33,307 bases of DNA from a virus (lineage: Duplodnaviria; Caudoviricetes), in IMG/VR virus record IMGVR_UViG_3300025168_018227, positions 1 to 33,307 of that record, one strand, 5' to 3'. Positions 1 through 21,440 of the stretch are shown here, piece after piece. Position numbers and translations under genes: made by a program. Each line of letters starts with the position of its first letter. The stretch's first letter is position 1. Under the pieces are notes generated by a model. The model ran no database searches. It was not told the origin of the DNA and saw only the letters and a program-made list of their open reading frames with translations.

Positions 1-600
1 CTACGGCCGTTTCGGTGGGCCAATACGGTCGTTCTCTGCCATTTTTCCCAGTGGCAGGGTGGGTATGCCCAGGGCCTCGTTTACCTGGCGCAGCTGGCAG
101 TGCAGGTTATAGCGTTCCGCATGGTCTGTAGCGTTGGCCAGCGCCTTGGCAATCGTGCGGCTCTGTTCCTGCAATATGAGTAAGTACTTGAATTTACCAG
201 TGTCCTTTATTCTATTCTTCACCTGCTCGATAGGCTGAACCTGGTTGGCCTGCTCCTGAAGCAAATGCCGAGCATGGGCTTCAGCCTTGATGAAGTAGTG
301 ACGAACGCGCCTACCAATGTCTGTTCGCTCCACCATCGCCAACTCCTTCGCCATGTCGAGAGTCAGCTGGTAATCGGTTGGAGCCCTGCCGTTAAGGGTT
401 TTACTCAGAATTGAGTAAAAGTCGATTCCCTCTATGAAACCGTATTCTTTGATCCGCCTGGATACCCAGTCGTTAAATCGGGTCTCAACTTGAAGGGCTT
501 TGTGCAGATCTCGCGCGTTGCAGTACTCCCCGTCAGCCCCCTTCCAGTGAAATATCTCCACGGGAGTGTTGAACGGGGTGCCAGTACTCGGCATGTTCAT
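1..600 (-). CDS. AntA/AntB-family phage antirepressor
   Basis: Motif NARDLHKALQV..RFNDWVSRRIKEYGF.EG.DF...DYQLTLDMAKELAMVER..IGRRVRHYFI typical of AntA/AntB; starts 1 nt after the integrase stop. Confidence 0.85.
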   Translation of the reverse strand: MNMPSTGTPFNTPVEIFHWKGADGEYCNARDLHKALQVETRFNDWVSRRIKEYGFIEGIDFYSILSKTLNGRAPTDYQLTLDMAKELAMVERTDIGRRVRHYFIKAEAHARHLLQEQANQVQPIEQVKNRIKDTGKFKYLLILQEQSRTIAKALANATDHAERYNLHCQLRQVNEALGIPTLPLGKMAENDRIGPPKRP

Positions 601-3288: not shown

Positions 3289-3510
3289 TTACTTTCCGAA
3301 GGATTTATTGTGGTGTTCCAGTACCTGCTGGCAGTCCACGCATGTGGCGCAGCCGGGCAGGGCTTCCCGCCGTTTAGCGGGGATTTCTTCGCCGCACTCC
3401 AGGCAGTAGGGCTCTTCGTTTGCTGGGGCTACCTGGTTGCGCTGTTTCTCCAGCGCGTGCTCGAGGGACTTTTCGATGTAGTCCCCAGCGATATCTGCTT
3501 TATCGGCCAT
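3289..3510 (-). CDS. DksA/TraR C4 zinc-finger protein (P2 Orf82-like)
   Basis: MADKADIA...CLECGEEIP..RREALPGCATCVDCQ. Confidence 0.9.
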   Translation of the reverse strand: MADKADIAGDYIEKSLEHALEKQRNQVAPANEEPYCLECGEEIPAKRREALPGCATCVDCQQVLEHHNKSFGK

Positions 3511-4078
3511 CTCGAAGTGCCTCCGTGGCGTCTGGGTTCAGGTCCATAGAAGGAATCAAGCGAACGGATCCGGCTTTTACGCAGGCCTGGGCTTGTTCCG
3601 GTGAATCGAAAATCACCACCATGGCCACGCGGTGGTGGCAGCGGCCGTGCTCTTCATTGATCACCGTCAGTTCGCCAAGGTCGTGTACGCGGCCAGTTGG
3701 TGTCTGGTTAGAATTGTTGCTCATGTTTTTCTCCGTTATGGGTTCTGAAGGAGCGATAAGCGGGTGTGCGCAAATTTCAAGTTCCTGGCGAGATTTCTTC
3801 TCGCTTTGCCTTTCTGCTTCGGAGGATAGGCAGCTTTTTTCAAAACGGGATTTGATGATTGCCAGCCCTTTTTCCGTGATCAGAGTTTTGGTGTAGGGCG
3901 TTGGCCCGTTGATCGGGTGCGCGTAAGTGCCGGTTTTCACCGCGAAGATGCCCTTGCCCCTGTAAGGGCCTGAAGGCATGTTCCGACGGTCCAGAATCTT
4001 CATCTCCCGAAGCGATCGGGTGAGGCAGTTTCTTCCCATATCCAGCACAGCGGCGGCTTGGTCGAATGTGTAGTCCAC
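3500..4078 (-). CDS. KilAC (ANT) domain antirepressor with C-terminal extension; GTG start at 4078
   Basis: AA.VL.MGRN.L...LR...IL...N.P...Y...G.F.VK.G.Y......YTKTLIT.KG is the KilAC pattern; AAGGAGG RBS precedes the GTG. Confidence 0.75.
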   Translation of the reverse strand: MDYTFDQAAAVLDMGRNCLTRSLREMKILDRRNMPSGPYRGKGIFAVKTGTYAHPINGPTPYTKTLITEKGLAIIKSRFEKSCLSSEAERQSEKKSRQELEICAHPLIAPSEPITEKNMSNNSNQTPTGRVHDLGELTVINEEHGRCHHRVAMVVIFDSPEQAQACVKAGSVRLIPSMDLNPDATEALRDGR

Positions 4079-4091
4079 GGCGTATTCCTCC

Positions 4092-6797
4092 TTACAGCTC
4101 TTTCTCAAAAATCCAGCAACGCACCGACTTGGCGGCCACTACATTGGCGTCCATCCGGAGCCTGGAATTGACGGTGCGGCTGGGTTCGACGAACTTGCGG
4201 CCGCGTGATGTTTTGAGGTGGCGCTTCAGTTCGCTGATGGGTGGTATGCGCAGCTTGTTCTCTGCACACACGTGCTCGAAGTGCTTCAGGTTGACGGCGA
4301 TCAGTTGGCCATCGATGCCGTAGTGGTTCAGGGTTGGCGTTCCGCTCAGGCCCTCGATGTAATCGAATGCTTCCCAGAACTCCTGAACCATGGGGTGGTC
4401 TGCATTAACGGCACTCTGGCGTTCTTGCGCCATCTTCTGGACAAGCTCCCGGGCTGGCTCCAGGAAGGATTCGGGCAGTAGCTTCAAGCCTTCCGGGCCA
4501 AGGCCATCCACCAGGGCCATCATCTGGCCGTGATTTTTTGCGATCCGGTGAATGCGGATGTCGGGAAGTTCAGCAAGGGCGCGCTCGTAGGTCGGAGCCC
4601 TGTCTTTAACCAGGCGCATGATCTTGCTTTCGTTGGTGGTGGCCTGCAGCACGAACCCGCTCACTGTTTCCATGGGCGTACGTTCGAGCCGTTCAGCCAA
4701 GGCCTTGGTGATCTCGCTGTGCCCTTCGCGGGTTATCTTCAGGTGCACTATCCGCTGCAGAACTGCGTCACTTGCGTTCACATCTGCGTTCTGGCTGATT
4801 ACGATCGCGCCACGAAACGGAGGCTCGTAGGTGTCGTTGCCGCCGTTTTTCTGGCCCCGGCTACGAACACTCCGGCCGTTGTAAGCGGTTTTCAGCTCGT
4901 CCCAGTCGAACTGCCGTTGTTTGGATCCGGAATCCTGGTCGCGATCGGACTCGATTAACACCACAGGCAGGTTCGATACCTGGGCAAAGTTGCGCGCCCG
5001 CGCGGCAAGGGTGGCTTTGCTGGGGTCAAAGCCTTCGTAATCCTGACGCCCGACCAGCTTCCAGAGGAATTCGATCAGCGTTGATTTACCGGAACCCGCT
5101 TCACCAACGATTTCCACAAACGGAAACGACTTGTGTTCCTTCCGGATCTGCTCGGCAAACAGCGTGCCCAGCCAGAAGGCGAGGGCAACAATGCCTTTCG
5201 GCCCGAAACAGTTGGCCAAGTCCTGAGCCCAGCCGCGCTGATAGTCCGCTGCGTTCTTGTTGATATTCAGCGACACCGATTCCGACAGCGTTTTAACGCT
5301 CATACGGCCGATGTCGTAATAGTCTTCGTTGTTTAGCTCGTGGGTTTGCCCCGCGTGTACAGCAAGCTCCGGGAATACCCAGGTTTCGTGCTCCTTGCTG
5401 TAACCAATGAAATCGATGGTTTCGACGGTTTTAATACCGCTGATTTGCTGTTTCAGCAGGCGGTCGAGCTGCTGGCTGCTGCCAGTCCAAACCGCACCTG
5501 GTGCAATACCCAGCAACCGCTTTTTAAATTCAGATGCGCTGGCCAGCTGGCCGCCACTGAACGTGTTCTTTACCGGGCGCCCATCGTGGGGAAAATCCAC
5601 ACGGTAGTAGTACCAGCTTTCATCCGTGATCTTGTTTGCCAGGTAATACAGGGCGGTGGGGTAGCAGTTGGCGATCTCGACCACGGCGTTGCACTGTTCC
5701 AGGGCCTTGGCAACGATCTGTTTATCCGTCAGCGGTTCGTCGCTCTCTTCCAGATCGCTCATCGCCTTGTGAAACTCGTCCATGTTCAACCGAAACCAGA
5801 ACAAGCGGTTGTTGAACCCGAACGGGAATTCCTTACGGCTGGTGTGCATATAGATGCGGTTGGCCTTCTCGCCAGCGCTGCGCGCAATAACCAAGTCGCC
5901 CTGGTACAAGAACTCTTCGGTAGTCGGCTCGCCGTGTTCGTTGATCAGCTCACCGCGCTGCCAGGCATCGTTCCAATCCCGTTTGTGTTTGCCCTCCTGG
6001 GGGATGATGGCGGCACCGACTCGCCAGCCTTCTGAACGAGCGATGTTGGCGAACTTGCGGATGTACTTAACGCCGGCATTGTCGCCGTCCATGGCCCAGA
6101 TGATGCGCGGGGTGTTTTCACCGGCCTCTTCGCGGGCTTTCTGTAGCTCGTCCAGAAACCGCTCTGGGTAGTTGTTGCAACTGAAAGCCGCAACCGCCGG
6201 AATGCCTGAGTGGTAGAGCGAAATCGCGTCGAATATGCCTTCTACAACCCACAACTCTTTGCCCTGTGAGAGATCAAGCCCGGGTGGTACCCACGCCTGC
6301 CCCTTGAAGTTGGCGCCTCGGTTGAAATGGGCCTTTTTCTTGCCGAACCGCTGGGGCTTGTCGATCAGGCGCTCCCAGTAGTCCCGATCGTTGATAGCAA
6401 AACGCACCGTGGCACTGCTGATGTTGCGCTCGTAATCCCAGTAGGTTTCCTGTTTGTACCAGCCTTTGACCATGGCCAGGTCAAAGCCGCGACCGTGGGC
6501 CATGTAGGCGTCGGCCACTTCGGTACCGGTAGCTTTTTCACCGGGCTTCAGGTCTTTGCGGGCGTAGCGCTCTGTCCAGCTGTCGAACAAGTCCGGAAAC
6601 AGCTCCTTCACGTGGTGCTGATCACCGCACTTGCTCTCGCGGCCGCACTTAACCATCCATGGGCTCTCTGTGCCCACGAAGGCCTCGCGCTTACCGCAGG
6701 ACGGGCAGCGAAGGCGGCGCAGGAATGCGCCACGTTCTACACCGTCAAAGTCGCTTTGGAGCCTGAGCAGGATGTCGGCCCGTAGTTGGTCTTGCAT
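4092..6797 (-). CDS. Replication protein: Zn-finger + TOPRIM primase + P-loop helicase (P4-alpha-like)
   Basis: CPSC...C..C finger; TOPRIM VVEGIFDA and MDGDNAG; Walker A GEAGSGKST; Walker B-like VVLIESD; 901 aa. Confidence 0.88.
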   Translation of the reverse strand: MQDQLRADILLRLQSDFDGVERGAFLRRLRCPSCGKREAFVGTESPWMVKCGRESKCGDQHHVKELFPDLFDSWTERYARKDLKPGEKATGTEVADAYMAHGRGFDLAMVKGWYKQETYWDYERNISSATVRFAINDRDYWERLIDKPQRFGKKKAHFNRGANFKGQAWVPPGLDLSQGKELWVVEGIFDAISLYHSGIPAVAAFSCNNYPERFLDELQKAREEAGENTPRIIWAMDGDNAGVKYIRKFANIARSEGWRVGAAIIPQEGKHKRDWNDAWQRGELINEHGEPTTEEFLYQGDLVIARSAGEKANRIYMHTSRKEFPFGFNNRLFWFRLNMDEFHKAMSDLEESDEPLTDKQIVAKALEQCNAVVEIANCYPTALYYLANKITDESWYYYRVDFPHDGRPVKNTFSGGQLASASEFKKRLLGIAPGAVWTGSSQQLDRLLKQQISGIKTVETIDFIGYSKEHETWVFPELAVHAGQTHELNNEDYYDIGRMSVKTLSESVSLNINKNAADYQRGWAQDLANCFGPKGIVALAFWLGTLFAEQIRKEHKSFPFVEIVGEAGSGKSTLIEFLWKLVGRQDYEGFDPSKATLAARARNFAQVSNLPVVLIESDRDQDSGSKQRQFDWDELKTAYNGRSVRSRGQKNGGNDTYEPPFRGAIVISQNADVNASDAVLQRIVHLKITREGHSEITKALAERLERTPMETVSGFVLQATTNESKIMRLVKDRAPTYERALAELPDIRIHRIAKNHGQMMALVDGLGPEGLKLLPESFLEPARELVQKMAQERQSAVNADHPMVQEFWEAFDYIEGLSGTPTLNHYGIDGQLIAVNLKHFEHVCAENKLRIPPISELKRHLKTSRGRKFVEPSRTVNSRLRMDANVVAAKSVRCWIFEKEL

Positions 6798-6812: not shown

Positions 6813-7151
6813 TCAGGCGTTGATGGCGATTGGTTTTACTGCCTGGTCACGCAGCTGCAGTAATTCGCGAACAGAAAAAATTGAGGTGCGCCCGGTGGCT
6901 GTGTCGTGAATCACCACGGAATTACCGGTTGTATGGCTCACATCGATGTAAGCGCTCTTGGCGCCTGCGGCTTCCAGGTCATACCAGGCGGCTGTCACTT
7001 TCAGCACCGCACGGCGGCGGGAGCAGCCGAACTCTTCCATCAGGCTGTCTGTGGTCATTTCGACGCTTTCGGCAGCGCTGGTGTTGCTTTTGCGCAAAGC
7101 GATCAGCTGTGAGTAGGCGGCGTCAGTCATGTTTTTTTGAATGGCGTTCAT
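6813..7151 (-). CDS. Hypothetical phage protein
   Basis: Overlap with upstream stop; located between activator and primase. Confidence 0.6.
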   Translation of the reverse strand: MNAIQKNMTDAAYSQLIALRKSNTSAAESVEMTTDSLMEEFGCSRRRAVLKVTAAWYDLEAAGAKSAYIDVSHTTGNSVVIHDTATGRTSIFSVRELLQLRDQAVKPIAINA

Positions 7152-7678
7152 TTCACGGTGTCCTTCTTTTTGAGTGAGAACCTTTCATGGGCCAGCTGCA
7201 TTTCCTGCTGGCATTGCTCGCGCACTTCCGGCGCAAGCGGTATTTCCCGGACATTGCCTTCTGGATCCAGAGAGAGGCGATCGGTGTGCGTCAGGAACAC
7301 CACGCCTTTGTATCCACAGTGTTCGGTGTCCTGGCAGAACACGTAGAGCTGTCGTTGTGCTGAAATCATCTGAACGCTGGTGCGAACACGGCACACGCCA
7401 ACGCAGTGCGGGCAAAGAATCTTGAGGAACGAATTTCGAACGCCGGCTTGCAGCTTCTGCTGGCTGTCCGGGTCAGGCGCTTTCGGGTTCATTGCCTGGA
7501 GCACTGGCCCGTAAGAAACCTCAACGGATCCGCGATACCCGCATTCAATGTTTCGGCACTGAACAAACGCGTCTTTTCCTTTTTGCTGAATGCTCCTGCT
7601 TGACTGGATCGAGCAGGACTCACCGCATGCAGGGCAACTGATCGTCAGGTAGTTGCGGGTGATTTGATTGAGCTTCAC
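7148..7678 (-). CDS. Ogr/Delta-family late transcription activator with two tandem Zn-finger domains; GTG start at 7678
   Basis: Two copies of CPxC-x22-C-x4/5-CG (CPACG...QCRNIECG; CPHC...FCQDTEHCG); AGGAGG RBS and GTGA overlap with upstream stop. Confidence 0.85.
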   Translation of the reverse strand: MKLNQITRNYLTISCPACGESCSIQSSRSIQQKGKDAFVQCRNIECGYRGSVEVSYGPVLQAMNPKAPDPDSQQKLQAGVRNSFLKILCPHCVGVCRVRTSVQMISAQRQLYVFCQDTEHCGYKGVVFLTHTDRLSLDPEGNVREIPLAPEVREQCQQEMQLAHERFSLKKKDTVK

Positions 7679-7863
7679 TTTCGCGGCCCTCCTACGGCGT
7701 GAAGTGCCCGGTTTCTGCCGGTTAATTTCAGGCTGGCGCCTCGCATGCGTTGTTTGATTAGCCATTCAGCAGCCTGATCATTTGTGTTCAAGCCTTGCTG
7801 TTTCCGGATCGTGTCCAGTAGCTGTTCCTGTTCTTCCGTTAGTTCCAGGGTTATTTCCGGCAT
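7675..7863 (-). CDS. Small ribbon-helix-helix-like protein
   Basis: ITLELT beta strand followed by two helices separated by G (QQG). Confidence 0.55.
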   Translation of the reverse strand: MPEITLELTEEQEQLLDTIRKQQGLNTNDQAAEWLIKQRMRGASLKLTGRNRALHAVGGPRK

Positions 7864-8421: not shown

Positions 8422-9090
8422 ATGAATAGCGAAAAATATAATGGATTAGAAATACTAACCAGAATGAAAGATGTTCTGAGGATGGAGCGCGATAAGGACA
8501 TTGCTGCTTATTTCGGCGTTAATCCGCAGATGATTTATAACTGGAAGGCGAGGGGCACCATTCCACTAGACCAATGCGTGCAGTTGAGGTCTGAGAAAGG
8601 AGTTAGCTTGGACTGGCTCCTGCTGGGGCTTGGAGATGGCGAGGTTGATGCAGATTACGCTTCTCAAGCTGGCGATCGGGACTATACCGAGATTCCTTTG
8701 TATGACGTGGAAGCCAGCGCGGGAAACGGCGCCTTCTTCGACCAGGAGCAGATATCGACCTATCTAAAATTCCGGAACGACTGGCTAACCCGTGAAGGGC
8801 TTCATGCCAAAGACCTGGTGGCTGTTCGGGTATCGGGTGACTCGATGGACGGCACGCTCTCCAACGGCGACACCGTTGTGATTGATTGTTCCCGAAAGAA
8901 ACCAGATGGCGTGTTTGCGGTTCGGATGGGTGATGCTCTGAGGATCAAGCGCCTTCAAAAGATGACCGACGGCAGCCTTCGTGTTTTCAGTGATAACGCA
9001 ATGTATCAACCTGAGACAATCCATCCTGAGAACATGAGCCAGATAGAAATTATCGGGCAGTGCTATTGGCGGGCTGGCCGGGTTTTTTAA
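8422..9090 (+). CDS. cI: CI-like repressor: N-terminal HTH + S24 (LexA-type) autopeptidase
   Basis: HTH DIAAYFGVNPQMIYNWKARGTIP..VSLDWLLLG; cleavage site ASAG; catalytic Ser GDSM and Lys IKRL. Confidence 0.92.
   Translation: MNSEKYNGLEILTRMKDVLRMERDKDIAAYFGVNPQMIYNWKARGTIPLDQCVQLRSEKGVSLDWLLLGLGDGEVDADYASQAGDRDYTEIPLYDVEASAGNGAFFDQEQISTYLKFRNDWLTREGLHAKDLVAVRVSGDSMDGTLSNGDTVVIDCSRKKPDGVFAVRMGDALRIKRLQKMTDGSLRVFSDNAMYQPETIHPENMSQIEIIGQCYWRAGRVF
9053..9090 (+). repeat. Direct repeat copy 1 (3' end of cI), 38 bp
   Basis: tcgggcagtgctattggcgggctggccgggttttttaa; 37/38 identical to 10335-10372. Confidence 0.95.
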
Positions 9091-9124
9091 ACTTTTGCCG
9101 ATTATTAATTAGGAGAAGTCGATC

Positions 9125-10228
9125 GTGCGTGGTCAGTGGACAGGGACGTACAAAGGACAAAATGTCGAAGGGGAAATGATTGCCAACATCGATGAGGTTG
9201 GCGATCATTTCGAGTGTGAGATTTACATAACCCCATACGAGAAAGGCGTTCCAACATCAGTTGGGTATGCTTCAACTACCGATAAGGGTGAGCAGCACCG
9301 CATCACGGCGGATGTTTATCCTATTGACCCTAGAAACGCGCGGCAGACTACATGGGAAAATATCAAGAACCTTTATCCCGAAGGGACTTCTCACAATGAT
9401 CGGGTAGAGGTAACTATTAGGGAGGAAGCCGGTAACATCTACATTCAATCGGTGCAGGATTCCTCCCTATTTTCCGGTGTCGCGTCCAAGTTTCACGCAC
9501 CGGAGCGATCGAAGATCCAGTCGTATGTTAAAAACTGGTCTGATTTCAAGGTTTACTTGGCGGAATTTGCTGATTCAGCCTTTCTCTTTCGCGGCCAGGC
9601 GAAAGATTGGCCTCTCAGAACTGCATTTCACCGAAGAGAGCGCTATCGACTGAACGAGTTTGTAAACCAAGATATTTTCACCCTCCATAGACGGTTAAGC
9701 GGTTTGACGGATCACTATTTCGATTTGTCTGTGCCAGATCAAAACGGCGCGTTCCTGAATCTCTTGCAGCACCATGGCTACCCTACGCCGCTTCTTGACT
9801 GGTCATACTCTCCCTACGTAGCGGCGTTCTTCGCGTTTCGCGACGTCAAAAAGAACTCGAAGGAAGATGGTTATGTGAGAATCTTTCTCTTTGACGCCGG
9901 TGCCTGGAGGAAGGATTTTAGGCAGCTCACCCACCTCGCATTACCCAGCCCACATCTTTCAGTTATGGAGTTTCTCTCGATGAATAATCCTCGGCAGTTC
10001 CCCCAGCAGGCTGTTACAACTGTAACGAATGTTGCGGATATCGAGAGCCACGTTCTGTTCCGGGAGCAGATGGGAAATACGAAATACATATATGCGGTGG
10101 ACATACCCTACAGCGAGCGAGAAGCAGCTATGAAGGATCTCAAGTTTATGGGTATAACCGCCGGCTCAATTTTCCCTGGAATCGACGGCGTTTGTGAGGC
10201 ATTGAGAGAACTCAATTTTGATGCCTAG
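9125..10228 (+). CDS. FRG-domain protein with an additional N-terminal domain
   Basis: FLFRGQ; LLQHHGYPTPLLDWSYSPYVAAFFAF; NPRQFPQQ; MGITAGSIFPGIDG; AGGAG RBS before GTG. Confidence 0.9.
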   Translation: MRGQWTGTYKGQNVEGEMIANIDEVGDHFECEIYITPYEKGVPTSVGYASTTDKGEQHRITADVYPIDPRNARQTTWENIKNLYPEGTSHNDRVEVTIREEAGNIYIQSVQDSSLFSGVASKFHAPERSKIQSYVKNWSDFKVYLAEFADSAFLFRGQAKDWPLRTAFHRRERYRLNEFVNQDIFTLHRRLSGLTDHYFDLSVPDQNGAFLNLLQHHGYPTPLLDWSYSPYVAAFFAFRDVKKNSKEDGYVRIFLFDAGAWRKDFRQLTHLALPSPHLSVMEFLSMNNPRQFPQQAVTTVTNVADIESHVLFREQMGNTKYIYAVDIPYSEREAAMKDLKFMGITAGSIFPGIDGVCEALRELNFDA

Positions 10229-10334
10229 GAGTTTGCTTAGAACTTCTTGGTCAACAGCCAGGATAAGAAGGTGGTCTTGAGCGTCGTAAATATCTTGAAG
10301 GCAATAATTAGAATCAATAACCACGTGGATATTT

Positions 10335-10372
10335 TCGGGCAGTGCTACTGGCGGGCTGGCCGGGTTTTTTAA
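10335..10372 (+). repeat. Direct repeat copy 2: orphan remnant of a cI 3' end
   Basis: tcgggcagtgctactggcgggctggccgggttttttaa; from 10319 it reads NHVDIFGQCYWRAGRVF* versus cI SQIEIIGQCYWRAGRVF*. Confidence 0.95.
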
Positions 10373-10399
10373 GGAAGTTGTAGATTAGGGAGGTAGGCA

Positions 10400-11341
10400 A
10401 TGGATCTGATAGTTGTGCTTCTTATGCTGGTTTTTATAGCCATGAGCTGGCGCTTGATATGCCGGTTCTGGGTTGGTCGAGGCGGTAAAAGGTGGGTTGG
10501 GCATGCGCTTGGCTTCATCTTTGGGCCTCTCATTGGCATATTTGCGTCCTTGCCAATGGTGCCGGGTAGTGAAAGCCCAGCCACAATCGGTAACTTGGTT
10601 GCCGGCCTGATCATCCTCGCTGGTTTCGTGTTCCTCGAGTACAGAGCAAATAAATCTGCATTGGTGCCTGCAACGGTTAAGCGTTCGAAGCGGACCGTGA
10701 ATAAGGAGCCCAGCCAAAGTAGTGAGGATCCTGCAGCTTCCTCCGCAGCTGAAACCACCTCAGCGCTCTCCTTCTCCCTTAAAGATACAGCTGAGCTAAT
10801 TCTTGCGGATGACATGGTTGATCAGCGTGAGGCTGAGCTGCTGCTAAACCTGCTTGATAAACAGGACATTATAAGGTTTGACCCAACCTGCAGAGCTCTG
10901 CACCAGGTATTGATTGCCAGCTTGGAAGATGGCGTGCTGGACAATGACGAGGCGGAGGAGATTAAAGCTCTGCTGAGTGAGATCTGCGATCGCCCGATTG
11001 CTCGACCAGAGAAACCTTCGGTCAAGAAATCCAAACCCACCAAACAATCAGCTGCCACCAAGAAAAAAACTGCGCCACCAAAAAAACGTGCTCCAAGGGT
11101 AGCGAGGGAAAAGAGCAGGACTCCACAGCCAGATGACATCTTGGCCTTTACATATACCGACTCCAAAGGCGACAGCTCCGATCGTGAAATTTTATACCGC
11201 AGCGCCTCGCAGAAAGGCGGCGTGACCTACGTGAAAGGCATTTGCCAAACACGGAAGGCTTTTCGCACGTTTCGTGCTGATCGAATTGAAATGCTTTGCT
11301 TTGTTGATACGGGTGAATTGGTAGATAGCTTCGGGCGTTGA
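10400..11341 (+). CDS. Membrane protein: about 3 N-terminal TM segments + TerB-like helical domain + C-terminal WYL-like domain
   Basis: Hydrophobic stretches in aa 1-80; ILADDMVDQREAELL and LEDGVLDNDEAEEI (TerB-like D-G/D-x-x-x-x-x-E repeats); FTYTDSKGDSSDREI...YVKGICQTRKAFRTFRADRI (WYL-like); GGGAGG RBS. Confidence 0.7.
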   Translation: MDLIVVLLMLVFIAMSWRLICRFWVGRGGKRWVGHALGFIFGPLIGIFASLPMVPGSESPATIGNLVAGLIILAGFVFLEYRANKSALVPATVKRSKRTVNKEPSQSSEDPAASSAAETTSALSFSLKDTAELILADDMVDQREAELLLNLLDKQDIIRFDPTCRALHQVLIASLEDGVLDNDEAEEIKALLSEICDRPIARPEKPSVKKSKPTKQSAATKKKTAPPKKRAPRVAREKSRTPQPDDILAFTYTDSKGDSSDREILYRSASQKGGVTYVKGICQTRKAFRTFRADRIEMLCFVDTGELVDSFGR

Positions 11342-11409
11342 GTCTGGAATCCCCGGTTTTCGTCGGATCGCAGGCAGGGCTGGAGTGTTTTGTATGCATT
11401 GGAGCAATA

Positions 11410-12225
11410 ATGAAAAATAATATAGAAGTCCTTCACCAGAGCAGGCTGGCCAACGTTTTCAATGTGGTAGGCGAGGGGAAAACTGCGGTTACCCTGCTGA
11501 CTAGCGTTATTTGGAATGATGGTAAACCTCGCAGAACCTATCTCAAGATGTTCTCAAAGTCGCTGGTTCTTGGGGTGCTGAATGAGATCACTGGTTATCT
11601 ACTGGGAAAATCCTGTGACCTTCCTTTGCCTTCCCACGCAGGAATTATCCAACTACCTGGTGGTTTGCTTAAAAATCAAGATGAATTCCTGCCAGTCGCA
11701 TTTGTGATAAGTGAGGCCCCAGGCCGCACACCCACGACGATCTGCCAGATAACCGATCCGGTCACTCACAAGCAGCTTGACTCCGTGATGAATATGATTC
11801 GTGATTGGCCGAAATTGAATGACACGGTGGCGTTCGATGACTGGACTGCAAACACAGACAGGAATCTTCAGAACATCGTGGTAGATGGCCCCGGGAGAAT
11901 ATTCCTTATCGACCATTCCAATTTGCCGATAAGCCCAACCTGGTCAGCCGCAGATTTGGATGCCGGCGCTGAATACCGAAATGTTCTAGCCGTGATACTG
12001 AAGATTGGCCAGAATGGTACGTTGCCGCAAAAGCGCGCCATTGCCGTAGCTGCAAGCCAGCATACCGATGCCTATAATGGCGTTTTTGATGAGCTAAAGT
12101 ATTGGTGGGATAAATTTCTTTCGGGTGACCCATCCAGGCGCAAGGCTCTTGAAGATTTCCTTCGTATTAGAGCGGATGAAGGGCACAATCGAATCAGTTC
12201 AAATTTTTACCTCATGGCGGTGTAA
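11410..12225 (+). CDS. HipA-like (PI3/4-kinase-like fold) Ser/Thr kinase; start ATG 11410
   Basis: YLK; LNEITGYLLG...LPLP; FDDWTANTDRNLQN catalytic loop; FLIDHS; GGAG RBS before 11410. Confidence 0.82.
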   Translation: MKNNIEVLHQSRLANVFNVVGEGKTAVTLLTSVIWNDGKPRRTYLKMFSKSLVLGVLNEITGYLLGKSCDLPLPSHAGIIQLPGGLLKNQDEFLPVAFVISEAPGRTPTTICQITDPVTHKQLDSVMNMIRDWPKLNDTVAFDDWTANTDRNLQNIVVDGPGRIFLIDHSNLPISPTWSAADLDAGAEYRNVLAVILKIGQNGTLPQKRAIAVAASQHTDAYNGVFDELKYWWDKFLSGDPSRRKALEDFLRIRADEGHNRISSNFYLMAV

Positions 12226-12227
12226 CG

Positions 12228-13097
12228 ATGAACGGCCTCGAAGAACTCTTTGAAAAAGCTGCCGCAAAATCTGGTATCCAGGGAAAATGGTTTGCAGCTC
12301 GCTGGCAGCCCGACATTGCAACCGGAGAAGTCTTAAACATTGGTGTTGGTTTTGTTTCTAATGATGGCGAGCTGACACTTCGACTTCTCAATGAATTCGG
12401 ACGTCTTGAGTGCCTGTTCGACAGCAATAATGCTGCGTTTCATGCTGAGCTTGCTTGTCAGATCGTGGAAGAATGCATGCGAGCAGACCCACAACGAAGG
12501 GGAAATCTTCTCGCCGGGGTGACCATAGAGGAACAGGGATTCGCCCAGGGTTCGGACAACGAAGGCATAATCGGGCGCCTGTACTCAGAAGTTGTGACCC
12601 TCGGTAGGGCTCGACCAACCAAGGGGAAAAAGAAGCCGTTCGTTCCGGTGTCCCGGGACTACGCTTACGAAAACCTAAGAAAGCAGTTAAAAAAACGACT
12701 CAATCTGGATTACGAAAAGCATGTTCCGAAAGACCCCTTCAAAGAAGTAAACGATGAATTTGGCCTCGATCGGCTTTACCTTCCTTTTCAGAGGGAGCAT
12801 GGTGTCGCAACACTGGCATCAGCTGCGTATGCAGACCCTTGGCGTGTTAAAAGCCACCTTTGGGAAGGGTTTAGATCGGTAGAAACTGCCTTGAAAAATG
12901 GCTTGAGCGACGAGGGCGCTCTTTTTGTGGTCATGCCTGGAGAAGGTCTCTCAACGGATGTTTTCAAAACTCTGGAGCACCAATTTGAAGAGTTTTATGC
13001 CTTCGTGAAGCGGCATGATATTCAGATTGAATCCCATGAGCACCTTATCGAACTCGGAGAGTCAATTTCTAATTGGTGTCAGGCAGAAGCGGCCTAA
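12228..13097 (+). CDS. DUF3037-like protein (partner of HipA-like kinase)
   Basis: N-terminal RWQPDIATGEVLNIGVGF resembles the DUF3037 signature; starts 2 nt after the kinase stop. Confidence 0.68.
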   Translation: MNGLEELFEKAAAKSGIQGKWFAARWQPDIATGEVLNIGVGFVSNDGELTLRLLNEFGRLECLFDSNNAAFHAELACQIVEECMRADPQRRGNLLAGVTIEEQGFAQGSDNEGIIGRLYSEVVTLGRARPTKGKKKPFVPVSRDYAYENLRKQLKKRLNLDYEKHVPKDPFKEVNDEFGLDRLYLPFQREHGVATLASAAYADPWRVKSHLWEGFRSVETALKNGLSDEGALFVVMPGEGLSTDVFKTLEHQFEEFYAFVKRHDIQIESHEHLIELGESISNWCQAEAA

Positions 13098-14080
13098 TTC
13101 TGTTGCGTTTCCGCATCGATACTGGTCACCAGACCACTATCACTCAAACTGTGACTCGCGCGCGTAACTACCCAATCCCGGCTGTTGATTTGAGGCTTTA
13201 GCCCGAAAACCTTCAGCCGGTATTCCGGCCCCACTTCTGGCCGCCCCTTGGCCAAAGTGATACCGAACTCAGCTTCCCCTCGCTGGGAACGCTTCAGGTT
13301 TGCCCAGGCCGCCGCTTCCGCCTCTGCAACATTCGGGAATGTTCCCCTCAGTCGCTTTACGCGCTCATTGGTACCGGCGAGCACCTGCATCTGCTGCCCC
13401 AGATCCAGATCATCGTAAAACGCAATCACGCCGGTGTAGCCTTCACGATCGGTTTCCTTGTAGCTGTACTGGTCGCCATCTGCCGGTGAGATGGTGATGG
13501 TGGGGAGTGCGGTACCGCTGATTGTTTCAGCCTCGCCACGGGGTGTGAACAGCAGACGGCTGGATTTCACGGCGGCGATTGCGTCATGCTTTTGGCCCAG
13601 GCGGGTAAGAAAGTTGAGGTCGGATTCGTCGGTCTGGTCCATGTGCTCGATGGTGGTAGCGGCCAGGCGATCTTTTACCACCGCTTCCAGCTCGTTGTTT
13701 GCCGCGATGGTTTTGACAATGTCGCCAATGGTGGTCTGGTGCCAGCTGCGAGTTTGCCGGGTGGGCAGTTGCTTGCCCATATCGGCACTTCGGGCGGTGA
13801 TGCTGATCTGGTCCGGTGGCCCGGTAAAGCTGGCCTCGTCGACGATGAACAGCCCTTTTTCTACCAGTGGCTGCCCGCGCCAGCCAATAGCCAGCTGAAT
13901 CTCTGCGCCCTTGGGTGGGATTTCCACGGCGCTATCGTGATCGCTGATAGTGATGCTAAGGGTGTCTGCCTCGTCGCCCGGGGTTTCATCCAGGGTGAGA
14001 TCGATCAGCCGCCCGTTTATGGTGGGTGTGATGTTGGTTCCGTTAACGACCAGACGGTACGCGGGTGCCAGGTGTTGCAT
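13094..14080 (-). CDS. D: P2 gpD-like late control / baseplate hub protein
   Basis: RLIDLTL.E..G.EADTLSI...D.D; HMDQTDESDLNFLTRLG; position after U. Confidence 0.92.
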   Translation of the reverse strand: MQHLAPAYRLVVNGTNITPTINGRLIDLTLDETPGDEADTLSITISDHDSAVEIPPKGAEIQLAIGWRGQPLVEKGLFIVDEASFTGPPDQISITARSADMGKQLPTRQTRSWHQTTIGDIVKTIAANNELEAVVKDRLAATTIEHMDQTDESDLNFLTRLGQKHDAIAAVKSSRLLFTPRGEAETISGTALPTITISPADGDQYSYKETDREGYTGVIAFYDDLDLGQQMQVLAGTNERVKRLRGTFPNVAEAEAAAWANLKRSQRGEAEFGITLAKGRPEVGPEYRLKVFGLKPQINSRDWVVTRASHSLSDSGLVTSIDAETQQN

Positions 14081-19365: not shown

Positions 19366-19980
19366 TTACCAGGTAATCACCTCGATAGCCTCCCGATCCG
19401 CCGCCGCAAGCGTAGCACCCACCGCATCCTTCAACTGCCAGGACTTCTCATAGATCGTCTTCACATGCATCAGCGCGGCGTTGGTCATGTCGATGGCCTG
19501 GTTGGGCGTCAGGTGATAGGTGATGTTTGACGCTGCCCGGAAGTCGATGACCGGGTTGGACTCTCCGGCGGCTTTCAGATCGCGGGCTTCTATGGCGATG
19601 GCTAGAAGGTTGGATTTATCCTCCGGGCGAATCTGGATGTGGTCCTGGTTGGGCCCGGGAAACTCGAAGGGGGTGCCTAATGCGAAGGCCTCGTCACGGG
19701 CTCTGTCCAGTTCCCGGCGTTTATCATCGGCCAGCTGCTCTATGCTTTTCGGCTCCGGCTCGATAGGTTCGTGGAACCACTCGCCATCCTGCCACACTGG
19801 CTCTTTGTGGTCGGGGAGCTTTTCCGGCTTCTCGGTCAGGAACATCTGGCCGTCGCGCACCTTGACTAGTTTATCGCCTACCAGAAGCTCGTCCCGGGCC
19901 TGGCTGTATTCCTGTTCTGATATCTCCACGCCACCGGCAAGAGGCGCTTTGCTTATACGGTTGTCTGCTGCATAGGGCAT
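19366..19980 (-). CDS. Tail fibre assembly/chaperone protein (DUF4376-like)
   Basis: Follows tail fibre; KRRELDRARD...FRAASN.TYHLT..Q.I.M...IYEKSWQLKD..IEVITW. Confidence 0.75.
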   Translation of the reverse strand: MPYAADNRISKAPLAGGVEISEQEYSQARDELLVGDKLVKVRDGQMFLTEKPEKLPDHKEPVWQDGEWFHEPIEPEPKSIEQLADDKRRELDRARDEAFALGTPFEFPGPNQDHIQIRPEDKSNLLAIAIEARDLKAAGESNPVIDFRAASNITYHLTPNQAIDMTNAALMHVKTIYEKSWQLKDAVGATLAAADREAIEVITW

Positions 19981-21440
19981 TAGGCAATCCTCATATAGTA
20001 GGTGGCCTGGGCGTGTTTGACGTTGGTGTGGTCGCCAGTGCGGGCGTTGGGGGAGTTTGCGGAATCGAAATCTAGTGTATAGAGAGAATCTTCATTTGAG
20101 CCACTTCCTATGTCACTGCCTGACCCTTGAATTCCCGTGGCAGATAAAGCACCGCTGAATTGATCGTTTGAAAAGTTGTTGCCTGCACTGTAATTGCCAA
20201 TGATGCCTGTGTCGCCCGTAATCTGCTGCATCTGGTCATTAGCAATTGCACCGCTATTTTCACCAGGTGCTAAATATCGTTTCTCGGAGTTGATTAGATT
20301 TACAATTTGACCAGCCATTGGACCAGTCGCAATTTCACCAGTTATTTCAATAAGAGACCCGCTTCCTGTAATGGTTTCATTGGTCAACAACCCCTCATTG
20401 TATTGACCAGAACCGTCCTCTCCCGCACTAAGCTTAATAAACTTCGCAGAAGCGCTATTTTCTGGCTCACTAGATCCGACTAAGTGATCCCATATTGGAA
20501 ACAGCTCGCCAATACCTTTGCCGCTGTATGCAGCGTTTTCCTCAATCCAGGCACCCCACTCCGAATTATATTTACGTATGAATTTTCGAGGATTCGAAAC
20601 ACTACCGCCTGCTATAATGAATCCTTGGCAGGATACATTTGTCGCACCAGACGGATATACCTGAAGATATCCGTTTTCGGCTGTTGGTGTGTTCAGGGCG
20701 TTGACGGTGTAATAAATACCACTCGTGAATAACTCGTCAAGATCACCCTCAAACCGATAACTAGAGCCCGGCATCTTACCAAGGCCAAATTGCTTAAACG
20801 CTTCGTGGACATCAGCTGAATCTGGGAATTTTTCCGCTTCACCCGATTTAGCCTCTGATGTCGTGGCTTTTTCTACTATTCCCGCTTTACTTGTAGTTGC
20901 AATAGAGCCTGTGTGAATTAAGGCCTTTCCCGTTGGTATTCCGTGGACTCCTTCGGTTTCTTCACCGTGTTGTTCTATGGAAGTGTCCGAGTAGGATCGT
21001 GTGGCCAGCACAACAGAAGGATCCACCTTTAGTGTTACCGCCTCTGTTTCAGACACTTCCATCACGAACCGGATGGTCTGGGTGCGGCTGGAGCCTTCGG
21101 CTAGAACCGGCTTGTAGGTTTCCGGGTAATTGCCGTAGCCGATCAGGTCGCCTGCGACGTCGAAGACGCCGATTTCCCGAATTGTCCAGCCCCCCACATC
21201 GGGTGGCAGCACCTGCTCCACCACCACCCAGTTTGGGTTCTCGTCCTCCACCTCGCTCAGATTGATGGGTGCCCGGCGCACTTCGTTGACCAGGGTGGTA
21301 CGTGATGTGTCCGGCACGGGCAGGGCGCCGTTGCCGTCACCCACGGCCAGTTCGGTGATCTCTATGGTCTGGCCCAGGGCGATGGCGTTGGCCAGTTTGG
21401 CCTGACCCACGTCCGTCAGTAGTGTGTAGAAGGTTGGCAT
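19980..21440 (-). CDS. H: Tail fibre protein (gpH-like N-terminus)
   Basis: FYTLLTDVGQAKLANA...MA/LAVGDGNG..GGWTIREIG..N.PETYKPVLAEGS..DPSVVLATR. Confidence 0.92.
   Translation of the reverse strand: MPTFYTLLTDVGQAKLANAIALGQTIEITELAVGDGNGALPVPDTSRTTLVNEVRRAPINLSEVEDENPNWVVVEQVLPPDVGGWTIREIGVFDVAGDLIGYGNYPETYKPVLAEGSSRTQTIRFVMEVSETEAVTLKVDPSVVLATRSYSDTSIEQHGEETEGVHGIPTGKALIHTGSIATTSKAGIVEKATTSEAKSGEAEKFPDSADVHEAFKQFGLGKMPGSSYRFEGDLDELFTSGIYYTVNALNTPTAENGYLQVYPSGATNVSCQGFIIAGGSVSNPRKFIRKYNSEWGAWIEENAAYSGKGIGELFPIWDHLVGSSEPENSASAKFIKLSAGEDGSGQYNEGLLTNETITGSGSLIEITGEIATGPMAGQIVNLINSEKRYLAPGENSGAIANDQMQQITGDTGIIGNYSAGNNFSNDQFSGALSATGIQGSGSDIGSGSNEDSLYTLDFDSANSPNARTGDHTNVKHAQATYYMRIA

What the first reader, a model, noticed from the sequence alone, without database searches (positions are those of the whole stretch)
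9125..13097. Four-gene accessory cassette between cI and gene D: candidate undescribed anti-phage island (FRG; TM/TerB-like/WYL-like; HipA-like kinase; DUF3037-like)
Seen: four non-core genes, visibly AT-richer than the structural genes, co-oriented with and directly behind cI, so positioned for expression in the lysogen. Established: P2-like phages and P4-like satellites carry variable loci enriched in antiviral systems; WYL domains bind nucleic acids; HipA-type kinases are toxins; TerB-like domains occur in defence contexts. Inference: this is a defence hotspot. It may hold 2-3 independent modules or one sensor-kinase-effector pathway. I do not recognise this combination as a named system.
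Basis: partly seen in the sequence, partly recalled or inferred. Interest (0 to 1): 0.85.

Follow-up and report, generated by a model that had tools for sequence, protein, structure and literature searches.

The report
Patchwork defence genes behind prophage repressor
Behind its repressor gene, a marine temperate phage carries three gene modules that also occur apart from one another and likely protect the host cell from rival phages: a distant relative of a known kinase toxin-antitoxin defence pair, a predicted NAD-destroying enzyme flanked by a likely insertion scar, and an untested membrane-anchored predicted DNA sensor, so it is a patchwork, not one new system.

Summary
The four genes are real, intact, co-oriented with cI and AT-richer than most core genes. 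The phage is phiCTX-like (Peduoviridae), probably of Marinobacter. The cI-gene D interval is a true variable locus: 0 to 4.0 kb among 25 complete intervals, this one the longest.

It is not one new system.
- The last two genes are a divergent HipA-kinase/DUF3037 pair, the architecture of the validated DS-6/HipAD (PDC-M66) toxin-antitoxin defence.
- FRG matches PADLOC candidate PDC-S15 and is 90% identical to a chromosomal-island gene.
- The membrane/acidic-helix/WYL gene sits directly behind cI, without the other three genes, in five relatives. Its middle domain is related to K139 Orf2; 'TerB' was not confirmed.

Expression, toxicity and protection are untested. This scan has noted both a kinase/DUF3037 pair behind cI and a duplicated cI end on other DNA. 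Verdict: new members of known kinds; the FRG and membrane-WYL genes are worthwhile untested candidates.

The parts
8422..9090 (+). cI repressor (HTH + S24 peptidase); likely first gene of the lysogenic transcript
   Evidence: Pfam PF07022 E 1e-13, PF00717 E 2e-19; phrog_4
9039..9090 (+). cI 3' end, copy 1 (coding)
   Evidence: 52-nt direct repeat D1
9125..10228 (+). FRG-domain protein, 367 aa (about 130-aa unassigned N-terminal region + FRG); predicted NAD-consuming effector
   Evidence: Pfam FRG E 1e-19; PADLOC PDC-S15 E 6e-40; 90% aa / 89% nt identical over 9124-10231 to an island gene in G109
10229..10320 (.). 92-nt spacer of unknown origin, inside the inserted segment
   Evidence: no match in any fetched locus other than copies of this same phage
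10321..10372 (+). cI 3' end, copy 2 (non-coding): likely insertion scar, the older cI-WYL junction
   Evidence: 46 of 52 identical to copy 1; with the following 27 nt it aligns without gaps to the cI stop/spacer/start of L005, L031, L060
10400..11341 (+). 313-aa protein: three membrane helices (2-86), acidic helical domain related to K139 Orf2/phrog_3989 (127-199), basic linker, WYL-like domain (240-305)
11410..12225 (+). HipA_2-family kinase, 271 aa (ORF open from TTG 11338); predicted toxin
   Evidence: K46, E59, D150, N155, D168 invariant in 30 of 30 aligned homologues; HipA_2 in 29 of 30, PDC-M66A in 9 of 30
12228..13097 (+). DUF3037-like partner, 289 aa, two domains; predicted antitoxin
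   Evidence: DUF3037 in 10 of 13, PDC-M66B in 9 of 13 homologues; model pLDDT 85; weak nuclease-fold hits
13094..14080 (-). gene D (tail/baseplate hub), conserved right boundary, convergent, 4-nt overlap
   Evidence: Pfam Phage_GPD E 8e-13; phrog_52

Best explanation
This is the variable cargo slot behind the repressor of a phiCTX-like prophage, holding three modules that also occur apart from one another and are likely co-expressed with cI in the lysogen, where they likely act separately against incoming phages. Module 1 (11410-13097) is a divergent HipA-kinase/DUF3037 pair: by analogy with DS-6/HipAD the kinase is predicted to be held inactive by its partner and released on infection to phosphorylate a host target and abort the infection. 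Module 2 (FRG) is predicted to be a stand-alone NAD-consuming effector; it was likely added last at the cI end, by a recombination that duplicated the last 52 nt of cI and pushed the older cI-WYL junction downstream. Module 3 is a membrane-tethered, enzyme-free protein whose WYL domain is predicted to bind single-stranded nucleic acid, a WYL-bearing variant of the K139 Orf2-type genes that sit behind repressors, most likely acting in superinfection exclusion. Shown: gene anatomy, variability of the slot, separate occurrence of the modules, intact kinase motifs, the duplicated cI end and its colinearity with relatives. Inferred: co-transcription, all biochemical activities, protection, and the order of events.
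For: Slot variability: 34 de-duplicated cI loci, 25 complete to gene D, 0-4.0 kb, 14 protein clusters. Membrane-WYL gene directly behind cI with neither FRG nor the kinase pair in 5 relatives, all complete intervals. FRG homologues at 90, 74 and 66% identity in 18-kb chromosomal stretches with no kinase, partner or phage structural hit, one beside a Shango helicase gene and Tn7-like genes. Kinase followed at once by a partner homologue in 6 of 9 other kinase loci, with no FRG hit in the lambdoid ones; directly behind the repressor in phages D14P and Mcat22. Family links. DS-6 defence needs kinase activity (PMC13092281, passages); deleting the kinase removed defence and deleting DUF3037 was toxic in the Retron-Sda1 operon (PMC12548924, passages). 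FRG named a potential antiviral ART-superfamily NADase (PMC9503650, passages). Scar; the window's cI is closest to that of L005 (86%) and L031 (84%), which carry the membrane-WYL gene directly behind it. Orf2 link: hhalign E 3e-8 to the phi1 protein and 5e-6 to K139 Orf2, both directly behind their repressors.
Against: The window's own kinase has no PADLOC hit at E<=0.1 and both genes score below the Pfam cut-offs; similarity to canonical PDC-M66 proteins is confined to the N-terminal halves (E about 5e-5). The only other P2-type prophage found with this kinase pair (G002) also carries an FRG gene, a WYL gene and a membrane-protein gene in the same slot, which one would also expect from a linked pathway. 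Both cI-end copies contain a weak hairpin plus T-run (5 found, 5.1 expected by chance) that could limit read-through. Most cargo of relatives has no PADLOC match (1 of 10, partial). In 2 of 9 kinase loci the downstream ORF was not recognised as a partner, and 1 is cut by a contig end. No experimental test of an FRG gene turned up in searches.
Confidence: 0.7

Rival explanations
1. The four genes form one pathway: the membrane WYL protein senses injected DNA, triggers the kinase pair, and FRG is the effector.
For: Co-orientation and tight spacing. In G002 the same slot holds WYL-BRCT, FRG (45% identical), a 150-aa membrane protein and the kinase pair (77/74%), so the same functional types meet in both P2-type prophages where the pair was found.
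Against: Each module occurs without the others. The two FRG genes are not the same acquisition: the window's is 90% identical to an island gene and 45% to G002's. The WYL proteins of the two loci have different architectures. The Sda1 pair defended without its neighbours.
Confidence: 0.1
2. The cargo mainly tunes lysogeny or host stress: the membrane-WYL protein senses DNA damage, and the kinase pair acts as an addiction module that stabilises the prophage, with little anti-phage effect.
For: WYL folds matched are DNA-damage and ssDNA sensors (PafBC, DriD, CapW). WYL-BRCT genes are the common occupants of this slot (9 of 34 loci). Toxin-antitoxin pairs can stabilise mobile elements (established knowledge).
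Against: Two members of the kinase/DUF3037 class have shown anti-phage activity. Rapid turnover of the slot fits conflict genes (PMC13586616, abstract and passages). The protein lacks the DNA-binding helix-turn-helix of WYL regulators.
Confidence: 0.13
3. The genes are silent or neutral passengers, and the second cI end is kept as a terminator that isolates the downstream genes.
For: Terminator-like pattern in both copies; no promoter-like site above chance in the region (3 found, 5.0 expected).
Against: All four ORFs are intact with conserved catalytic residues; FRG and the WYL gene have clear ribosome-binding sites. The hairpin is simply the last cI codons and is at chance level. Copy 2 is colinear with a normal cI-WYL junction of relatives.
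Confidence: 0.07

Closest known systems
DS-6 / HipAD / PADLOC PDC-M66 (HipA-like kinase + DUF3037 protein)
   Same: Two adjacent genes, kinase first; HipA_2 family with intact catalytic residues; partner with a DUF3037-type N-terminus and similar length; kept as a pair across genomes.
   Different: Divergent clade: the window's kinase is missed by PADLOC, similarity to canonical members covers only the N-terminal halves, DUF1829 is not detected; no direct comparison with the DS-6 sequences was made; activity untested.
PADLOC candidate PDC-S15 (FRG-domain protein; Frg clade of the ART superfamily)
   Same: FRG domain, E 6e-40 over 230 residues; stand-alone gene in islands.
   Different: Extra N-terminal region of about 130 aa, shared with other FRG clusters (Atlas score 0.77, a lead only); no validation found in the papers searched.
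Vibrio phage K139 Orf2 / phrog_3989 (acidic helical repeat + BRCT), lysogenic operon cI-orf2-glo-int
   Same: Related acidic helical domain; gene placed 25-30 nt behind the repressor in a temperate phage.
   Different: Here one copy of the domain, three membrane helices and a WYL domain in place of BRCT.
Defence hotspots of P2-like phages (PMC9122126; PMC13586616) and the lambda cI-rexAB position
   Same: Small locus with rapid gene turnover between two conserved genes; co-oriented behind the repressor (rexAB arrangement recalled).
   Different: The cI-gene D site of phiCTX-like phages is not among the P2 sites named in the passages read (A-Q, downstream of L, int-att, int-primase, tail genes); growth here by insertion with a cI-end duplication rather than a clean swap.

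Membership tests
DS-6/HipAD/PDC-M66 | First gene is a HipA-family kinase | tested here: met
   HipA_2 in 29 of 30 homologues (best 1e-7), PDC-M66A in 9 of 30 (best 3e-4); window protein itself E 0.035 and no PADLOC hit; hhalign to a canonical M66A E 5e-5
DS-6/HipAD/PDC-M66 | Catalytic residues intact | tested here: met
   K46, E59, D150, R151, N155, D168 invariant in 30 of 30; their roles are assigned from recalled kinase motifs
DS-6/HipAD/PDC-M66 | Second gene with N-terminal DUF3037 | tested here: met
   DUF3037 in 10 of 13 (best 4e-6), PDC-M66B in 9 of 13 (best 2e-6); window protein E 0.016 and 0.0015; hhalign E 4e-5 and 5e-4
DS-6/HipAD/PDC-M66 | C-terminal DUF1829 domain in the partner | tested here: inconclusive
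   No DUF1829 hit in 13 of 13; model shows an alpha/beta C-terminal domain with weak Foldseek matches to EndoMS, Mus81-Eme1, ERCC1, Can2, none at E<=0.001
DS-6/HipAD/PDC-M66 | Kinase and partner adjacent and conserved as a pair | tested here: met
   2-nt gap here; partner immediately downstream in 6 of 9 other kinase loci, 2 unrecognised neighbours of similar size, 1 contig end
DS-6/HipAD/PDC-M66 | Kinase-partner binding, toxicity of the free kinase, anti-phage activity | not testable with these tools
PDC-S15 / FRG family | FRG domain over the length of the profile | tested here: met
   Pfam 2-92 of 94 positions; PDLC04937 15-244 of 254, E 6e-40
PDC-S15 / FRG family | NAD-consuming activity and defence | not testable with these tools
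   Prediction only (PMC9503650 passages)
K139 Orf2 / phrog_3989 | Acidic helical domain | tested here: met
   phrog_3989 E 4e-9; hhalign E 3e-8 and 5e-6
K139 Orf2 / phrog_3989 | C-terminal BRCT domain | tested here: not met
   C-terminus is WYL in 16 of 17 homologues, no BRCT hit
WYL transcription regulators (BrxR, CapW, DriD, PafBC) | WYL domain | tested here: met
   Pfam E 1e-6; Foldseek E 9e-5 to 9e-4
WYL transcription regulators (BrxR, CapW, DriD, PafBC) | N-terminal winged helix-turn-helix and WCX domain | tested here: not met
   No HTH or WCX hit in 17 homologues; N-terminus is membrane helices
TerB-like domain | Match to the TerB profile or fold | tested here: inconclusive
   0 of 17 full-length and 0 of 3 excised domains hit Pfam TerB; no TerB structure in the Foldseek rows shown; the wider structural search did not finish
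P2-type defence hotspot | Small variable locus between two conserved genes | tested here: met
   0-4.0 kb, 14 protein clusters among 34 loci
P2-type defence hotspot | Enrichment in recognised defence systems | tested here: inconclusive
   1 of 10 representative cargo proteins of relatives hit PADLOC, partially (PDC-S48)

The most novel reading that the evidence does not exclude
The membrane-anchored acidic-helix/WYL protein is a new kind of injection-site sensor that detects incoming phage DNA at the inner membrane and either blocks it or licenses a neighbouring effector (the kinase pair or FRG), and the conserved 3' end of cI works as a reusable docking site through which such effectors are stacked one after another behind the repressor.
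Probability: 0.12. Interest if true: 0.7.

Novelty: new member of a known kind. Interest (0 to 1): 0.37.

Why it matters
If the reading holds, it extends HipAD-type defence to a divergent clade that PADLOC misses in this phage and that recurs behind repressors of unrelated temperate phages (Marinobacter-type, Pseudomonas, Moraxella). It offers two compact untested candidates in a natural context: an FRG protein, predicted to be an antiviral NADase, and a membrane-WYL protein family (17 homologues). It also preserves a footprint of how cargo enters such slots, a process that PMC13586616 calls still to be elucidated. None of this overturns current views.

Tried and rejected
Excision of FRG between the repeats: no joint in the contigs of 4 of 6 listed runs; contigs drop rare variants and two runs may be the source of this DNA, so this shows nothing. 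Expression: no RNA holder listed. Kinase-partner complex prediction: not available. Profile search of representatives: not available. PDB sequence searches for the kinase, partner and FRG gave nothing meaningful. NCBIfam gave no family for the four genes. TerB label: not confirmed. ESM Atlas: no usable feature hit for the membrane-WYL protein, only WYL-domain look-alikes. Gene D and kinase as single-protein queries in viral contigs found only this phage or distant ones. D14P kinase as a bridge to E. coli phages found only itself. Promoter and terminator scans were at chance level. TTG 11338 as kinase start rejected in favour of ATG 11410. The second cI end as a decayed whole cI gene rejected: similarity stops 52 nt before the stop. 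Brenes and Laub 2025 is not held; only its reference entry was seen. PMC4870250 says nothing on K139 Orf2 (its matches are orf22-28). The supplementary PDF and Table S1 of PMC13092281 could not be read and may bear on DS-6 homologue ranges. No look-alike earlier finding by place.
Full report
Context. The window is a whole 33.3-kb virus record with integrase, antirepressors, primase, double Ogr, cI, and P2-type tail, head and terminase genes. Its primase is 58% identical to that of Halomonas phage vB_HboP_4908 and 47% to phiCTX, so it is a phiCTX-like member of the P2 group. The closest cI relatives in named genomes are in Marinobacter (78 and 73%). An identical cI lies inside a 357-kb contig (L028), which fits an integrated prophage. 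The host genus is inferred.

Observation. The four ORFs exist as described, on the strand of cI, ending against convergent gene D. GC is 0.48-0.51 against 0.54-0.59 for ten core genes, but cI (0.50) and the tail fibre gene (0.51) are similar. The kinase probably starts at ATG 11410. The stretch is assembled in one piece without differences in two runs that may be its source, and is covered in pieces in a third.

The slot is variable. I gathered cI relatives from viral, metagenome and genome collections (4 of 191 genomes of the genus matched). After de-duplicating on the first 300 nt behind cI and dropping loci with cI under 50% identity or lacking its end, 34 loci remained, 25 complete to gene D; several are near-identical, so they are not 34 independent events. 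Intervals run from 0 (L064) to 4.0 kb (this phage). Contents fall into 14 clusters: a zinc-ribbon membrane protein (14 loci), DUF7338 on the other strand (13), WYL-BRCT (9), the membrane-WYL gene (6, this phage included), FRG (2), the kinase pair (this phage only, among these 34). Of 10 representative cargo proteins from relatives, 1 gave a partial PADLOC hit (PDC-S48).

Kinase pair. The window's kinase hits HipA_2 only at E 0.035-0.043 and no PADLOC model, and its partner DUF3037 at 0.016 and PDC-M66B at 0.0015. Homologues close the gap: 29 of 30 kinases hit HipA_2 and 9 of 30 PDC-M66A; 10 of 13 partners hit DUF3037 and 9 of 13 PDC-M66B (alignment A1 holds the query and 29 of 31 hits, A2 the query and 12 of 13). 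K46, E59, D150, R151, N155 and D168 are invariant. Against a canonical pair fetched with the PDC-M66B model (3 of 401 genomes; confirmed) hhalign gives E 4-5e-5 over the N-terminal parts only. The partner model (pLDDT 85) has two domains; Foldseek gave no match at E<=0.001, with weak recurring matches to nuclease-type folds. In 6 of 9 other kinase loci a partner homologue follows at once; 2 have an unrecognised ORF of similar size and 1 is cut off. In D14P and Mcat22 the pair follows the repressor directly; in G080 an upstream repressor-like frame was read by eye only. Literature: DS-6 is a HipA-like kinase plus a DUF3037/DUF1829 protein, defence needs the kinase, renamed HipAD (PMC13092281, passages and supplement rows). 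In the Retron-Sda1 operon the pair, called PDC-M66, defends alone, and loss of DUF3037 is toxic (PMC12548924, passages). Brenes and Laub 2025 was seen only as a reference. So this pair works like HipAD, and I file it as a divergent member with DUF1829 unconfirmed.

FRG. Pfam FRG E 1e-19, PDC-S15 E 6e-40. Homologues occur in 6 of 191 genomes of the genus. Three close ones (90, 74, 66%) lie in chromosomal stretches with no kinase, partner or phage structural hit, one near a Shango helicase gene. DNA similarity to the G109 copy (89%) spans the gene alone, 9124-10231. PMC9503650 (passages) names Frg an ART-superfamily domain, a potential antiviral effector and possible NADase. Searches listed no paper that by title tests one; the two PDC-S15 papers were not read.

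Membrane-WYL gene. Three membrane helices, a four-helix acidic domain and a WYL domain joined by disordered linkers. WYL is supported by Pfam in 16 of 17 homologues and by Foldseek; there is no HTH, so it is not a BrxR/CapW-type regulator. TerB was not detected. The acidic domain matches phrog_3989 and the N-terminal part of BRCT proteins that sit directly behind the repressor in Pseudomonas phage phi1 and Vibrio phage K139. The K139 record annotates PL, cI, orf2, glo (exclusion), int as the lysogenic operon. One search (TerB, WYL, prophage, defense) listed 3 papers, none on this architecture by title.

The scar. The last 52 nt of cI recur at 10321-10372, well beyond chance. A profile of 29 distinct cI ends found a second copy only in records of this phage, among 68 loci with cI, plus an orphan cI end in front of a WYL-BRCT gene in the G109 island and a weak partial hit in G189. 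Copy 2, the next 27 nt and the start of the WYL gene align without gaps to the cI stop, spacer and start in L005, L031 and L060 (27 nt each; 30 in L032). So copy 2 is the older junction and 9091-10320 came in later. Whether by single crossover of DNA carrying its own cI end or by an illegitimate event cannot be told; the closeness of this cI to those of L005 and L031 mildly favours insertion into the resident gene. The repeats predict that FRG could be lost again leaving cI intact; contigs showed no such join, which is uninformative.

Against the simple picture. In G002 the slot, split over two contig ends and joined here by inference from the FRG halves, reads cI, WYL-BRCT, FRG (45%), a membrane protein, kinase (77%), partner (74%), D. 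The same functional types thus meet twice. With two cases, different FRG lineages and different WYL proteins, I take this as shared sampling of one gene pool, but it keeps a linked pathway alive at about 10%.

Comparison and verdict. Variable antiviral loci in P2-like phages are established (PMC9122126, passages; PMC13586616, abstract and passages); the cI-D site is not among those named in the passages read. Earlier notes of this scan report a kinase/DUF3037 pair behind cI and a duplicated cI end in other genomes; they are unchecked and not independent support. The finding is real and probably defensive, but it is a patchwork of known or catalogued kinds. Interest 0.37; novel case 0.12 at 0.7.

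Noticed in passing
L095:6930-9233 (G109 chromosomal island next to urea-transport genes): An orphan cI 3' end (about 27 codons) stands in front of a WYL-BRCT gene, a 180-aa membrane protein and the 90%-identical FRG gene, with no phage core genes within 18 kb: prophage cargo has moved into an island together with the cI end.
   Followed up: partly
L078 and L094 (G002 contig ends): A relative whose cI-D slot holds WYL-BRCT, FRG, a 150-aa membrane protein and the same kinase pair; its FRG is split at the contig break.
   Followed up: partly
L026:3286-5571; L027:3474-5607; L098:5118-7470: The same divergent kinase/DUF3037 clade sits directly behind repressor or repressor-like genes of unrelated lambdoid phages and is annotated only as hypothetical.
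   Followed up: partly
L001, L004, L008, L016, L030, L036, L050, L059; L106:2923-3573: Genes behind cI shuffle three domains: WYL+BRCT, acidic helix+BRCT, membrane+acidic helix+WYL. Several are annotated as NAD-dependent DNA ligase though the phi1 protein showed only a weak BRCT match and no ligase domain in Pfam.
   Followed up: partly
L005:9857-10891; L031:9691-10620: Unassigned 344-aa and 309-aa genes occupy the kinase pair's place behind the membrane-WYL gene; no Pfam or PADLOC hit. Further defence candidates.
   Followed up: partly
L064:8678: A relative with an empty slot: cI abuts gene D.
   Followed up: no
window 7148-7765 (-): Ogr/Delta activator with two zinc-finger repeats (205 aa), conserved in relatives.
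   Followed up: no
window 1-600 (-) and 3500-4108 (-): Two antirepressor-type genes (AntA family beyond the integrase; KilAC/ANT domain).
   Followed up: no
window 19366-21440 (-): Tail fibre gene with low-GC C-terminal part (0.47 at 20-21 kb) and a DUF4376 chaperone: a second variable region.
   Followed up: no
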